From a virus (taxonomy: Duplodnaviria > Heunggongvirae > Uroviricota > Caudoviricetes), in IMG/VR virus record IMGVR_UViG_2529293040_000025, positions 1-30,710 of that record: 30,710 nucleotides of DNA; one strand, 5' to 3'. Below are positions 7,637 through 9,381 of the stretch, in pieces. Within the stretch, counting starts at the first letter, position 1. Each line of letters begins with the position of its first letter. The notes beneath the pieces are model-generated. The model made no database searches, was not told the origin of the DNA, and was given only the letters and a program-made list of their open reading frames with translations. Made by a program: the position numbers and the translations under genes.

Positions 7637-8221
7637 GTGGGTAAAGAACCTGAATGGAAAGTTGATAAACAACCAGCATGGCTGGTGGCAGCAATACGAA
7701 GAACGATTGCTGATTTACCTCATGGCTATGAGGAAGCAGCAGAAATTCTTGGTTTGTATAAATCTGATGATATCACCCCAGCAAAAGATCAATTGCATAA
7801 CAGACTGCGTAGCGGTGGGGATCAAATTTTTCCACTTGAGTGGGCCATGGTTTTACAGGATGCCAGTGGTACCAGGCATGTAACGGATGCGATAGCGCGT
7901 CGTAGTAATGGGGTGTTTGTGCCGCTGGTGGACATTGATGACATTGACAATGGTGACATTAATCAGCGGCTGATGGAGTCAATAGAATGGATTGGCAAGC
8001 ATTCCCAGTACTTACGCAAGGCAACTGCTGATGGAGTTATTGACCAGGCTGAGCGTGAGCAAATCGAAGAGAACAGCTACCAAGTAATGGCGAAGTGGCA
8101 GGAGCATTTAACACTGTTATTTCGTGTTTTTTGTGCACCGGAAAAGAGTAACGCCCGCGAGTGTGCAGCTCCGGGCGTCGTGGCGTCGATTGCTTCTGGT
8201 TGTGGAGAAACTAACGCATGA
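7637..8221 (+). CDS. CII-like regulatory protein (YmfL / phage 186 CII family)
   Basis: GTG start with GAGGA RBS. Position after cro and length (194 aa) fit the e14 YmfL-type regulators as recalled. ATGA overlap couples it to the next gene. Confidence 0.5.
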   Translation: MGKEPEWKVDKQPAWLVAAIRRTIADLPHGYEEAAEILGLYKSDDITPAKDQLHNRLRSGGDQIFPLEWAMVLQDASGTRHVTDAIARRSNGVFVPLVDIDDIDNGDINQRLMESIEWIGKHSQYLRKATADGVIDQAEREQIEENSYQVMAKWQEHLTLLFRVFCAPEKSNARECAAPGVVASIASGCGETNA

Positions 8222-8546
8222 ACAGTTTAACGGCAAATAACCGTTTGTCGCAACAGCTGGTGGTCAGCGTCGCTGAACACCTGTTGTTACGGCATGAATG
8301 CAGATTACCAAATCACCTGGCTGTAAGTAACCACAGAGAACTTTACCTGACTGTGGGGGGCGAGTTGTGCAGGAACTTAACCGCTGGTTTCGTGACGGAA
8401 GAGGGCTTTATGTCCATGTTATTCGTTGGGAGCCAGAAACACAGCGCGTTATCTATCTTCGCAAAGACTACCCGCATGAGTGCTTTAGTCCTTTGTGGAA
8501 ATTCAGGCGTGATTTTGTTGAGTGTGAAGGACCACCAGCACATTGA
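8218..8546 (+). pseudogene. YmfM-like gene, apparently frameshifted in a G6 run (8355-8360)
   Basis: Frame A from ATG 8218 reads MNSLTANNRL...; a more protein-like frame (VVQELNRWFRDGRGLYVHVIRWEPETQRVIYLRKDYPHECF...) continues from the G-run to a TGA at 8544-8546. One extra G would join them into a ~109-aa protein. The alternative is the single 387-aa ORF reported by the ORF track. Confidence 0.3.
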
Positions 8547-8823
8547 TTCTGCCATTCCGGGACGTTACACTGTTCAGGCACCTTATAAAGCGGGTGCCGG
8601 GATTGGCGTCCTGAAATTGATTACTGAGCATAACCGCGCTCATGCGGTTTTTTCGTGTCATGAGCATTGCTACGCCCAAATTATGGTGGGGCGTACAGGG
8701 CCGACTTCGGTCGGGCCGGGTTCGGTAGTCTCCGGTAACGCCAACCCTGTACGTCTCACCACCTCTGTGATTGGCGTCCCATGTGGTGAGTTTTCTGAAA
8801 AACTGACTACCGGGGCTGTCACC

Positions 8824-9381
8824 ATGACTACTCTCCCAACCCTCTCTCAACCTGAAATTGCCATCGTTGATGGTCAGGCTGTTACATCTTCTTTGGCTGT
8901 TGCTGACTTCTTCTCTAAACGTCATGACGATGTTCTGAAAAAGATCCGCATTTTGGATTGTTCTCCAGAGTTTTGTGCCCGCAATTTTGCGGAGACATCA
9001 ATTTTGGTACACCAGCCCAACGGCGGTACTCGCAAACTTCCTTGCTACCACATCACCCGCGACGGCTTCGCGTTCCTGGCAATGGGCTTCACTGGCAAAC
9101 GTGCTGCCCAGTTCAAAGAGGCATACATCAATGCCTTTAACCAGATGGAGAAACAGCTTTCAAAGCCCTCTGTACCGAGCGACGTTGCACATAACGCCAG
9201 CGTTCTCTATTCCTACATTTCATCAATTCATCAGGTCTGGTTGCAGCAGCTTTATCCCATGCTGGAAAAAGCTGAATCACCGCTGGCTGTAAGTCTGTAT
9301 GACCGAATTAACGATGCGGCATTTCTTGCCCGTCTTATTCATTCGTCGCTGAACTCTTCAGAGGTAAGGGGGCGCAAATGA
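8824..9381 (+). CDS. Rha-family phage regulatory protein
   Basis: MTTLPTLSQPEIAIVDGQAVTSSLAVADFFSKRHDDVLKKIR matches the usual N-terminus of Phage_pRha proteins. It is in frame with, and could extend upstream into, the 8218-9381 ORF. Confidence 0.55.
   Translation: MTTLPTLSQPEIAIVDGQAVTSSLAVADFFSKRHDDVLKKIRILDCSPEFCARNFAETSILVHQPNGGTRKLPCYHITRDGFAFLAMGFTGKRAAQFKEAYINAFNQMEKQLSKPSVPSDVAHNASVLYSYISSIHQVWLQQLYPMLEKAESPLAVSLYDRINDAAFLARLIHSSLNSSEVRGRK

What the first reader, a model, noticed from the sequence alone, without database searches (positions are those of the whole stretch)
8218..8830. Ambiguous coding between the CII-like and Rha genes: probable G-run frameshift in a YmfM-like gene
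The ORF track reports one 387-aa ORF, but its N-terminal two thirds look low-complexity, while an alternative frame after a G6 run encodes a convincing protein segment ending at 8546; the Rha domain has its own plausible start at 8824. This is the second homopolymer frameshift in the window, which raises the chance that both are sequencing artefacts. About 280 nt between 8546 and 8824 would then be unassigned.
Basis: partly seen in the sequence, partly recalled or inferred. Interest (0 to 1): 0.45.

Follow-up and report, generated by a model that had tools for sequence, protein, structure and literature searches.

The report
Antisense-RNA switch hidden inside an ORF
The supposed frameshift is not one: the stretch holds an intact 59-residue gene and a known type of phage RNA switch (IsrK plus C4 antisense RNA) that controls the Rha antirepressor, all over-printed by a long reading frame that evolution keeps free of stop codons although its amino acids do not matter.

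Summary

The frameshift interpretation fails.
- In 67 distinct homologous sequences the G-run never changes length.
- The alternative-frame segment is a complete, stand-alone DUF4222 gene (8367-8546, GTG start). Its wobble pattern shows it is the frame under protein selection. The G-run is its Shine-Dalgarno.

The "unassigned 280 nt" is a P1 immI / Gifsy-1 isrK-type RNA cassette.
- It has a promoter, an IsrK sRNA (8578-8654) and a C4 antisense RNA (8679-8766).
- C4 target sites b2 and a2 follow, and a2 covers the ribosome-binding site of the Rha ATG at 8824.
- The C4 stems covary. Eight C4 loop alleles each match their own sites in IsrK and in the leader.

One feature was unexpected. The frame in phase with Rha stays stop-free across the whole cassette in Enterobacterales (0 of 342 variant codons are stops, against 35 of 620 in the other two frames) without amino-acid constraint. 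It usually starts at an ATGA/GTGA overlap with the preceding gene.

I read the ORF as a translated "bridge". That reading is inferred, not shown.

The parts
7637..8221 (+). ymfL (CII-like regulator). Its TGA stop (8219-8221) overlaps the ATG at 8218 of the long ORF (ATGA).
   Evidence: NCBIfam NF041471 phage_reg_YmfL, E 2.7e-54; Pfam Phage_CP76; junction sequence read.
8218..9381 (+). 387-aa frame-A ORF, proposed 'bridge' ORF. It over-prints segment 1, DUF4222, PisrK, isrK and C4, and is in phase with Rha. Both ends are ATGA overlaps.
   Evidence: ORF. 0 stops in 67 of 67 homologues. 0 of 342 variant codons are stops against 35 of 620 in the other frames, Fisher p 2e-7. No codon periodicity: 0.296/0.317/0.318. 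Chain of 4-nt overlaps from 7637 to 12444.
8218..8366 (+). Segment 1: the part of frame A with no other gene, homologous to the YmfM N-terminus. Amino-acid constraint is weak at best.
   Evidence: Synonymous/non-synonymous variants 19/39 in frame A, 13/43 and 9/50 in the other frames. Codon-position divergence 0.378/0.324/0.405. Lengths in 7 relatives are 146-182 nt, all 2 mod 3.
8355..8360 (+). G6 run: Shine-Dalgarno-like element 6 nt upstream of the DUF4222 GTG. It is not a frameshift site.
   Evidence: Length invariant in 67 sequences. The equivalent positions in relatives carry GGGGGATGAG, GGGAGAAACAG, GGAGGGCGAAAG or AAGGAG.
8367..8546 (+). DUF4222 gene, 59 aa, GTG start. It is a real small protein with a small beta-barrel fold.
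   Evidence: Pfam and PHROG full-length matches. Variable sites per codon position 9/4/24 of 60 in frame B, and synonymous/non-synonymous variants 24/16 in frame B against 4/36 in frame A. 59-aa homologues. AlphaFold2 pLDDT 84.7.
8543..8571 (+). PisrK promoter: -35 TTGATT (8543-8548), 17-nt spacer, -10 TACACT (8566-8571). The transcription start is placed at about 8578.
   Evidence: Read from the sequence. Same geometry as Gifsy-1 (TTGACA-17-TATATT, 6 nt to the IsrK 5' end), whose promoter activity was shown experimentally (PMC4825925). TATAGT/TACACT is conserved in 19 modules. The consensus scan did not call it, because it matches 8 of 12 positions.
8578..8654 (+). IsrK-type sRNA. It has hairpin 1, hairpin 2 with b1 in its loop (TTGGCGT, 8603-8609), a linker with a1 (GATTACTGAGC, 8619-8629), and an intrinsic terminator (stem 8632-8649, T-run to 8653).
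   Evidence: Rfam RF01394, 59.3 bits against a gathering score of 50. Terminator. Hairpin 1 covaries at 5 of 6 pairs. a1 and b1 pair with the cognate C4 loops in 9 of 9 alleles.
8679..8766 (+). C4-type antisense RNA. Loop a' is GTTCGGTAGTCT (8720-8731) and b' is ACGCCAA (8738-8744). The ATG at 8683 at its 5' end is the positional equivalent of the first AUG of Gifsy-1 orf45.
   Evidence: Rfam RF01695, 82.3 bits against a gathering score of 45. 27 pairs, 99.3% of cells paired, 18 pairs with changes on both sides, 0 of 500 shuffles as high. Gifsy-1 comparison.
8767..8823 (+). Leader with C4 target sites: b2 TTGGCGT (8771-8777) and a2 GACTACCGGG (8805-8814). a2 overlaps the G-rich ribosome-binding site of ATG 8824. 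The conserved GTGGTGAG (8783-8790) is complementary to the C4 3' strand CTCACCAC (8755-8762).
   Evidence: Coordinates. Cognate a'-a2 helices are 6.5-10.5 (9.0-10.5 in eight of nine alleles), against 4.0-8.0 for non-cognate pairs. Alignment of 19 modules.
8824..9381 (+). Rha-family antirepressor-type protein, 185 aa from the regulated ATG. Its stop overlaps the next ATG (9378).
   Evidence: Pfam Phage_pRha E 9e-27; TIGR02681; PHROG 821/518/373/63. tblastn homology in 12 genera starts at residue 1. The (G)AGG-N9-ATGGCT context is conserved in most loci. The N-terminus MAT(I/V)P(T/A)L is conserved even where the cargo differs.

Best explanation
Interval 8218-8830 is not a frameshifted gene. It holds three kinds of feature.

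1. An intact stand-alone DUF4222 gene (8367-8546). It starts at its own GTG, and the conserved G6 run is its Shine-Dalgarno.

2. An immunity cassette of the phage P1 immI / Salmonella Gifsy-1 isrK type.
- A sigma-70 promoter at 8543-8571 drives a 77-nt IsrK sRNA that ends at an intrinsic terminator.
- Read-through transcripts contain a C4-type antisense RNA (8679-8766).
- Two exposed C4 segments, a' and b', pair with a2/b2 in the leader. a2 covers the ribosome-binding site of the Rha ATG at 8824, so C4 keeps the Rha antirepressor untranslated in the lysogen.
- IsrK carries copies of the same target sites (a1/b1). It can therefore compete for C4 or for the leader and switch Rha on.

3. The 387-aa ORF, which is an over-printed frame with no amino-acid constraint upstream of 8824.

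Shown here: the gene and RNA identities, the structures, and the co-variation of loops with their sites.

Inferred from P1 (my own knowledge of Citron & Schuster 1990/1992 and Biere et al. 1992) and from Gifsy-1 (PMC4825925): repression of translation, processing of C4, and activation by IsrK.
For: RNA identity and structure:
- Rfam matches are above gathering score for isrK and C4.
- The same tandem sits at a fixed distance upstream of Rha homologues in all 20 loci scanned (two of them score best to sRNA-Xcc1 rather than C4), from Citrobacter, Edwardsiella, Serratia, Pantoea, Izhakiella, Symbiopectobacterium, Providencia, Aeromonas, Marinomonas and others.
- C4 stems: 99.3% of cells paired, 18 of 27 pairs with compensatory change.
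- IsrK hairpin 1 covaries, and a terminator is present.

Loop-to-site matching:
- There are 8 distinct a' loops and 2 main b' core sequences (ACGCCAA, TTTCCAC). Each is complementary to its own a1/b1 in IsrK and a2/b2 in the leader, at the same positions. Non-cognate pairs are clearly weaker.

Comparison with Gifsy-1:
- The characterised locus has the same order and spacing of promoter, IsrK, C4, b2, GGTGGTGA, a2-with-SD and ATG (PMC4825925).

DUF4222:
- The wobble pattern is in frame B only.
- Homologues are 59 aa, and the predicted fold is confident.
- The G-run length is invariant.
- In relatives that lack the cassette, DUF4222 is called as a separate 59-aa gene.
Against: - No expression data exist for this prophage.
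- The promoter matches only 8 of 12 consensus positions and was not called by the scan.
- The c4-a1b1 Rfam model scores below its gathering score here: 21.6 against 46.7.
- The cargo is a Rha-family protein, not homologous to Gifsy-1 AnrP or shown to be homologous to P1 Ant. Its activity as an antirepressor is assumed from family annotation.
- Frame A is stop-free in every relative. Some translation of the long ORF is therefore likely, and ATG 8824 may not be the only start.
Confidence: 0.85

Rival explanations
1. Bridge ORF. This extends the best explanation rather than excluding it. Ribosomes coupled from ymfL (ATGA at 8218) translate frame A through DUF4222, PisrK, the IsrK terminator, C4 and a2/b2 into Rha. 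On PR-derived transcripts this would suppress the intrinsic terminator and Rho polarity and bypass the C4 block. Untranslated PisrK transcripts would stay under C4 control. Under this reading the act of translation is selected, not the peptide.
For: - 0 stops in frame A in 67 of 67 close homologues.
- 17 of 19 diverse enterobacterial modules are open from the IsrK 5' end to the ATG. Column-shuffle expectation is 24 stops; 2 were observed.
- 0 of 342 variant codons are stops, against 35 of 620 in the other frames, p 2e-7.
- There is no codon periodicity.
- All indels are multiples of 3.
- In 9 of 12 loci the ORF starts at an ATGA/GTGA overlap with whatever gene precedes it.
- In L006, L008, L009 and L012 the open frame extends 921-1224 nt upstream of the Rha ATG; in the two inspected, L006 and L012, it runs antisense through inserted minus-strand gene pairs that look like toxin-antitoxin genes.
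- In P2-like phages the open frame is not the cargo frame, yet it still ends on the next gene's ATG.
- The open frame is absent where the cassette heads an operon (Yersinia phage) or follows antQ (Gifsy-1).
- The window has an unbroken chain of 4-nt overlaps from 7637 to 12444 only if this ORF counts as a link.
Against: - This rests on sequence statistics only.
- The sequences are related, so the shuffle null overstates what is expected.
- Modules in Marinomonas and Aeromonas are not open. Neither are L014 and L020 upstream of C4.
- No Shine-Dalgarno precedes ATG 8218, so initiation would depend on coupling.
- A 387-aa fusion might be non-functional or harmful.
Confidence: 0.45
2. Sequencing error or inactivating frameshift mutation in a single YmfM-DUF4222 gene at the G6 run.
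For: - Homopolymer runs are error-prone.
- Frame A before the run plus frame B after it would give about 109 aa, close to the 112 aa of e14 YmfM.
Against: - The run length is identical in 67 distinct sequences from many assemblies.
- e14 YmfM is the frame-A reading throughout, not an A-to-B fusion.
- DUF4222 homologues are 59 aa with their own starts.
- Frame B has a stop 11 codons upstream of the GTG.
Confidence: 0.02
3. Programmed -1 ribosomal frameshift on the G-run, giving a YmfM-N::DUF4222 fusion alongside the other products.
For: - The phase relation between the ATG at 8218 and the DUF4222 frame is constant (always -1) in 7 relatives with 4 different segment lengths.
- The G6 run is conserved.
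Against: - No slippery heptamer is shared. L166 has G GGA GAA and e14 has G GGT GAT.
- Every relative instead has a start codon (GTG, ATG or TTG) with a Shine-Dalgarno-like run at that place.
- In L007, L009 and L012, DUF4222 stands alone at 59 aa.
Confidence: 0.04
4. The 387-aa ORF encodes one genuine multi-domain protein (YmfM-like, then an 'Ash' domain, then Rha), and the RNA-family matches are incidental.
For: - Pfam Phage_ASH (E 8e-11) and PHROGs 821, 3960, 995 and 6928 match the frame-A translation.
- 119 of the 120 best database clusters are exactly 387 aa.
- RefSeq annotates it as one protein.
Against: - Variation shows no wobble pattern in frame A anywhere upstream of 8824.
- In 8367-8546 the selected frame is B.
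- The 'conserved residues' coincide with the -35 and -10 boxes, the RNA stems and the target sites.
- Stems change by compensatory pairs, and loops co-vary with distant sites. That is RNA-type constraint, not protein-type constraint.
Confidence: 0.07

Closest known systems
Salmonella Gifsy-1 isrK-orf45(STnc1160)-anrP locus (Hershko-Shalev et al. 2016, PMC4825925)
   Same: - The order and spacing match: promoter, 77-nt IsrK with terminator, C4-like RNA starting with AUGG, b2, GGTGGTGA, a2 with the ribosome-binding site, then the ATG of an antirepressor-type gene (searches compared).
- IsrK is complementary to the C4 region.
- An AUG sits at the C4 5' end. In Gifsy-1 this is the functional start of orf45, whose translation is coupled to anrP.
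   Different: - The cargo is a Rha-family protein with no detectable similarity to AnrP.
- The orf45-equivalent frame has no stop and runs in phase into Rha. The AUG-to-ATG distance is 141 nt here and 134 nt in Gifsy-1.
- The frame is open far upstream, back to the ymfL stop, whereas in Gifsy-1 it is closed 3 nt upstream of the orf45 AUG.
- The cassette sits inside the early-right operon, not behind antQ.
- No isrJ match was reported in the Rfam scan of 7000-10000.
Phage P1/P7 immI operon (c4 RNA - icd - ant1/ant2). This comparison rests on my own knowledge of Citron & Schuster 1990/1992, Biere et al. 1992 and Heinrich et al. 1994/1995; those papers were not held in the library.
   Same: - The C4 RNA family is the same (Rfam RF01695).
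- a'/b' loops are complementary to a1/b1 upstream and a2/b2 downstream.
- A target site overlaps the ribosome-binding site of the first downstream cistron.
- Alleles differ in loop and site sequences, as in P1/P7 heteroimmunity.
   Different: - No icd gene is present.
- The site on the ribosome-binding site is a2 rather than b2, and b2 lies 5' of a2.
- a1/b1 are packaged in a separate terminated sRNA (IsrK).
- The cargo is Rha, not Ant1/2.
- The host element is a lambdoid prophage with a cI/Cro switch.
Satellite phage P4 CI RNA with seqA/seqC (same Rfam clan, CL00128). The P4 'Ash' ORF gave its name to Pfam PF10554.
   Same: - A processed antisense RNA is flanked by complementary sites.
- An ORF over-printing the RNA has been annotated as a protein.
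   Different: - P4 CI acts by transcription termination on replication genes (as summarised in PMC4825925).
- No P4 sequence was examined here.
E. coli K-12 e14 ymfL-ymfM
   Same: - The ymfL end is the same, with the ATGA-coupled start MNSLT.
- YmfM is the frame-A reading and over-prints an intact DUF4222 ORF in the -1 frame.
   Different: - e14 lacks the IsrK-C4-Rha cassette.
- Its frame-A ORF stops 9 nt before the next gene.
- Segment 1 is largely a different sequence.

Membership tests
C4 antisense RNA (Rfam RF01695) | Covariance-model score above the curated gathering score | tested here: met
   82.3 bits against 45, full model 1-87.
C4 antisense RNA (Rfam RF01695) | Long closing stem plus two hairpins, supported by compensatory changes | tested here: met
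   27 pairs, 99.3% of cells paired, 18 pairs with changes on both sides, 0 of 500 shuffles as high, and slid controls at most 49% paired.
C4 antisense RNA (Rfam RF01695) | Exposed segments a'/b' complementary to sites upstream (a1/b1) and downstream (a2/b2) on the same transcript, with one downstream site on a ribosome-binding site | tested here: met
   Pairings of 7-12 bp (10-11 bp for a' in this window) at fixed positions in 9 of 9 alleles. Cognate pairs are stronger than non-cognate pairs. a2 (8805-8814) abuts ATG 8824.
C4 antisense RNA (Rfam RF01695) | Mature RNA released from a longer transcript by processing (RNase P in P1) | not testable with these tools
   Needs RNA analysis. The ACCACC 3' end is conserved.
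IsrK sRNA (Rfam RF01394) | Covariance-model score above the gathering score, with own promoter and intrinsic terminator | tested here: met
   59.3 bits against 50. Terminator at 8632-8653. The -35/-10 geometry equals that of Gifsy-1. Promoter activity was not tested.
IsrK locus (Gifsy-1 type) | Short leader ORF (orf45) starting at the C4 5' AUG and ending on the antirepressor start (AUGA) | tested here: not met
   The AUG at 8683 is present, but the frame has no stop and is in phase with ATG 8824, 47 codons away. In Gifsy-1 the leader ORF is 45 codons followed by UGA overlapping the AUG.
IsrK locus (Gifsy-1 type) | Hfq binding, and activation of antirepressor translation by IsrK in trans | not testable with these tools
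   Known only for Gifsy-1 (PMC4825925).
P1 immI operon | icd cistron between c4 and ant, with Ant1/Ant2 as cargo | tested here: not met
   There is no separate ORF between 8767 and 8823. The cargo is Phage_pRha. Only its N-terminal domain matches Ant-type PHROGs: phrog_63 E 2.6e-19, phrog_373 E 7e-30.
DUF4222 (Pfam PF13973) | Full-length HMM match above the cut-off in a stand-alone protein of about 60 aa | tested here: met
   51.1 bits against 27, profile positions 4-51 of 53. PHROG 1343 positions 1-59 of 59. Homologues of 57-70 aa with 22 invariant columns.
Rha family (Pfam PF09669 / TIGR02681) | HMM match above the cut-off | tested here: met
   93.9 bits against 29.9. 92.2 bits against 45.95.
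YmfM (e14 b1148, annotated as 'cell division inhibitor') | Sequence homology of the frame-A product | tested here: met
   MNSLT start and the ...LTAG...FVGS.KH..LS..AK... block are shared. PHROG 1170 E 7e-10.
YmfM (e14 b1148, annotated as 'cell division inhibitor') | Evidence that the frame-A product is the selected or functional protein | tested here: inconclusive
   Where it overlaps DUF4222, selection acts on frame B. Segment 1 shows only weak periodicity. The published constructs carried the whole ORF, including the embedded DUF4222 ORF.
Programmed -1 frameshift site | Conserved slippery heptamer at the junction of the frames | tested here: not met
   The junction sequences differ and are not slippery in L166, L163, L167 or e14.

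The most novel reading that the evidence does not exclude
The 387-aa 'Rha' ORF, and by extension e14 ymfM and the Pfam 'Ash' family, may be a bridge ORF. By this I mean a frame kept free of stops only so that ribosomes coupled from the preceding gene can travel across an embedded small gene, a promoter, a terminated sRNA and an antisense RNA.

Operon-derived transcripts would then ignore the sRNA terminator, Rho and the C4 block. Transcripts from the cassette's own promoter would remain under RNA control. Two RNA genes would lie inside a translated frame whose peptide is irrelevant.
Probability: 0.45. Interest if true: 0.7.

Novelty: new variant of a known kind. Interest (0 to 1): 0.5.

Why it matters
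Annotation:
- Hundreds of E. coli, Shigella and Salmonella genomes annotate this stretch as a 387-aa 'Rha family regulator' or 'peptidase', or as a 321-aa protein plus a DUF4222 pseudogene.
- None of the three RefSeq records and the phage records I inspected annotates the two RNA genes that carry the regulatory logic.
- Pfam PF10554 and several PHROGs appear to model the translation of an RNA cassette.

Biology:
- The cassette is an immunity and antirepressor switch.
- At least eight specificities circulate in Stx-converting and SfV/ST64B/mEp460-like phages, which bears on prophage induction and cross-immunity.

If the bridge-ORF reading is right:
- It gives a simple, testable way in which one DNA segment yields a controlled sRNA circuit from its own promoter and an uncontrolled translated read-through from the operon promoter.
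- It also raises the question of which frame of e14 ymfM actually inhibits cell division.

Tried and rejected
- The sigma-70 consensus scan found no promoter in 8100-8950. I placed the promoter by its positional match to Gifsy-1 and its conservation instead.
- RNA duplex energies over whole segments discriminated alleles poorly, because the shared stems dominate. I replaced this with loop-only helix searches.
- The original P1 papers could not be read.
- svsR, the NC-SV prophage sRNA (PMC12803456), turned out to be a different, C0293-like RNA at the cI 3' end.
- The papers on ymfM filamentation do not separate the two frames.
- The Foldseek search with the DUF4222 model gave only generic SH3/KOW/Tudor barrels with E above 0.05, so no function can be assigned.
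- The homologue list for the 387-aa ORF was too uniform to build a useful alignment for structure prediction, so I did not run one.
- I rejected the sequencing-artefact, programmed-frameshift and true multi-domain-protein readings. The reasons are given under the rival explanations.
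Full report
**Context.** The window around the finding is the immunity and early-right region of a lambdoid E. coli prophage. It is 99.6% identical to prophages of O111 and other strains. The genes in order are:
- a LexA/cI-type repressor (6663-7316, minus strand);
- cro (7412-7609);
- the CII-like ymfL (7637-8221);
- the 387-aa ORF (8218-9381);
- a 74-aa ORF (9378-9602);
- a replication-type gene (9599-10591).

RefSeq annotates the stretch inconsistently. Some records give one 387-aa 'Rha family' protein. Others give a 321-aa protein plus a partial DUF4222 pseudogene. 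None of the records I inspected annotates an RNA gene there.

**The frame-B segment is a complete gene.**
- It matches Pfam DUF4222 over profile positions 4-51 of 53 (E 9.5e-14) and PHROG 1343 over positions 1-59 of 59.
- Database homologues from E. coli, Salmonella, Citrobacter and Kosakonia are stand-alone proteins, mostly of 59 aa.
- In relatives that lack the Rha region, gene callers call it as a separate 59-aa gene between ymfL and the replication gene.
- In 67 distinct homologous sequences, the variable sites in 8367-8546 fall on frame-B codon positions 1/2/3 as 9/4/24 of 60. Variant codons are 24 synonymous to 16 non-synonymous in frame B, against 4 to 36 in frame A.
- Between the window and e14, almost all differences in the conserved block are synonymous in frame B.
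- AlphaFold2 gives a confident small beta-barrel with pLDDT 84.7. The nearest solved folds are KOW, SH3 and Tudor barrels, none of them significant.

**The G-run is not a frameshift.**
- Its length is identical in all 67 sequences. 64 are identical there and 3 carry substitutions.
- It lies 6 nt upstream of the GTG.
- Relatives have other purine-rich Shine-Dalgarno-like strings followed by GTG, ATG or TTG at the same place. e14 has AAGGAG-N7-TTG.
- There is no shared slippery heptamer.

**The 'unassigned 280 nt' is an RNA cassette.**
- Rfam finds isrK at 8578-8654 (59.3 bits, gathering score 50) and C4 antisense RNA at 8679-8766 (82.3 bits, gathering score 45). The a1b1 model is sub-threshold at 8565-8617.
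- The same tandem lies at a fixed distance upstream of Rha homologues in every one of the 20 loci scanned, from more than ten genera; 18 match the C4 model and two (L013, L018) score best to sRNA-Xcc1 at that position.
- On 25 C4 sequences the Rfam structure is 99.3% paired, with double-sided changes at 18 of 27 pairs. No shuffle out of 500 reached this, and slid controls reached at most 49% paired.
- IsrK hairpin 1 covaries at 5 of 6 pairs, and its terminator is detected.
- Upstream lies TTGATT-17-TACACT, 6 nt before the IsrK 5' end. This is the same geometry as TTGACA-17-TATATT in Gifsy-1. The boxes are conserved in 19 modules.

**Loops and target sites co-vary.**
- Close relatives carry at least 8 different a' loops and two main b' cores (ACGCCAA and TTTCCAC), with minor flanking variants.
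- Each a' has a complementary run of 7-12 bp at position 41-42 of its own IsrK (a1) and at position 35-45 of its own leader (a2). Each b' has a 7-bp match in the loop of IsrK hairpin 2 (b1) and at leader position 5-7 (b2).
- Non-cognate combinations score clearly lower.
- In the window the coordinates are b1 8603-8609, a1 8619-8629, a' 8720-8731, b' 8738-8744, b2 8771-8777 and a2 8805-8814.
- a2 runs into the G-rich ribosome-binding site of ATG 8824. In most of the other modules it ends in GGAGG or GAGG, about 9 nt before the ATG.
- ATG 8824 is therefore the regulated start. Supporting this, tblastn homology to Rha proteins of other genera begins at residue 1. The first residues, MAT(I/V)P(T/A)L, are conserved even where the downstream cargo differs, as in the SfV type.

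**Comparison with known systems.**
- The characterised Gifsy-1 locus has the same parts in the same order.
- In that locus, IsrK pairs with the 'orf45' region, which is the C4-like STnc1160. This enables orf45 translation, which is coupled to the antirepressor AnrP. The authors themselves note the parallel with P4 SeqA/CI (PMC4825925).
- The window differs in three ways. The cargo is Rha and is unrelated to AnrP. The orf45-equivalent AUG (8683) is in phase with Rha and no stop intervenes. The cassette sits inside the early operon.
- P1 immI supplies the repression logic, in which C4 masks a ribosome-binding site. That part rests on my own knowledge, because the papers were not available.

**The unexpected feature: frame A is kept open.** The frame shows no amino-acid constraint. 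Codon-position divergence across the cassette is 0.296/0.317/0.318. Even so:
- All 67 close homologues have 0 stops in frame A over 8218-8823, against 11-16 and 5-12 in the other frames.
- Of 19 diverse enterobacterial modules, 17 are stop-free from the IsrK 5' end to the ATG. The totals are 2 stops in this frame, against 73 and 49 in the others. Column shuffling gives a mean of 24 and a minimum of 12. Both halves of the cassette behave this way.
- Counting distinct variant codons, 0 of 342 are stops in this frame against 35 of 620 in the other two, Fisher p 2e-7.
- All indels are multiples of three.
- In 9 of 12 loci the ORF begins with an ATG or GTG overlapping the stop of the preceding gene. 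That gene is ymfL, DUF4222, a helicase, or another copy of the module.
- In the Edwardsiella loci (L006, L008, L009) and the Izhakiella locus (L012) the open frame extends 921-1224 nt upstream of the Rha ATG. In L006 and L012, the two I inspected, it runs antisense through an inserted minus-strand gene pair that looks like a toxin-antitoxin module; that identification is from reading the sequences, not from a family search.
- In P2-like phages the open frame is not the cargo frame, yet it ends on the ATG of the next gene.
- The open frame is missing where the cassette heads an operon (Yersinia phage) and in Gifsy-1, where the cassette follows antQ. It is also missing in Marinomonas and Aeromonas.
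- In cassette-free relatives and in e14, the YmfM frame likewise runs from the ATGA at the ymfL stop across DUF4222 and stops just before the next gene. Given the DUF4222 protein sequence, synonymous resampling leaves that frame open only about 13% of the time.
- In the window, seven successive genes from 7637 to 12444 overlap by 4 nt, provided the 387-aa ORF counts as one link.

**How I read the open frame.** I take it as a translated bridge. Translation coupled from ymfL would carry ribosomes over the IsrK terminator, C4 and the a2/b2 sites on PR-derived transcripts. This is an inference from sequence statistics on related sequences. I put it at about 0.45.

**Verdict.**
- The frameshift or artefact interpretation is rejected.
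- The region is a new member, with an in-frame, operon-embedded variant architecture, of the known IsrK/C4 antirepressor-control cassette, next to an intact DUF4222 gene.
- The conserved stop-free over-printing frame is the part that deserves an experiment.

Noticed in passing
L081 (E. coli K-12 e14) 4823-5179; equivalent to window 8218-8546: The K-12 gene ymfM (b1148, annotated 'cell division inhibitor') is the frame-A reading. It completely over-prints an intact DUF4222 ORF (TTG start behind AAGGAG), which is the frame under purifying selection. The published filamentation constructs carried the whole ymfM ORF, so the phenotype could belong to the DUF4222 protein.
   Followed up: partly
window 8566-8853 (aa 117-212 of the long ORF): Pfam PF10554 'Ash protein family' (profile positions 1-105 of 107) matches the frame-A translation of the promoter, IsrK, C4 and leader. 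PHROGs 821, 3960, 995 and 6928 match the frame-A translation of overlapping parts of 8398-8823. These protein families appear to model an RNA cassette. Their 'conserved residues' coincide with the -35/-10 boxes, the stems and the target sites.
   Followed up: partly
window 8720-8731 and homologous loci L125, L138, L115, L134, L143, L159, L079, L004: At least eight a' loop specificities and two main b' cores (plus minor variants) circulate among Stx-converting, SfV, ST64B, mEp460 and cdtI-like phages. Sequence upstream of 8600 is nearly invariant and the cassette is mosaic. This looks like a set of heteroimmune antirepressor-control alleles.
   Followed up: partly
window 9378-9602: The 74-aa ORF after Rha is PHROG 1153. 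The DUF4222 protein also hits that PHROG weakly (E 0.008). The two small proteins flanking the cassette may be distant paralogues.
   Followed up: no
window 7637-12444, plus strand: There is an unbroken chain of genes joined by 4-nt ATGA/GTGA overlaps: 8218, 9378, 9599, 10588, then 11732 and 12055.
   Followed up: partly
L015 (Symbiopectobacterium purcellii) 831-3040: Two complete IsrK-C4-Rha modules lie in tandem. The first long ORF ends in an ATGA that overlaps the start of the second.
   Followed up: no
L006 1672-2188 and L012 1513-2146 (minus strand): Two different minus-strand gene pairs that look like toxin-antitoxin modules (judged by eye, not by a family search) are inserted between DUF4222 and the IsrK promoter. 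In both cases the plus-strand frame in phase with Rha stays stop-free across them.
   Followed up: partly
window 8783-8790 and 8755-8762: A conserved (G)GTGGTGA(G) in the leader is complementary to the 3' strand of the C4 closing stem (CTCACCAC). It could form an alternative helix, comparable to the A/B structures described for Gifsy-1.
   Followed up: no
window 8367-8546: The DUF4222 model is an SH3-like barrel whose best, non-significant, structural neighbours are Spt5/NusG KOW domains. That is of interest for a gene sitting just upstream of a terminator-containing cassette, but it is only a lead.
   Followed up: partly
window 8503-8925 (minus strand): A 140-aa minus-strand ORF spans the RNA cassette. 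It has no support and is probably a shadow ORF of the GC-rich structured region.
   Followed up: no
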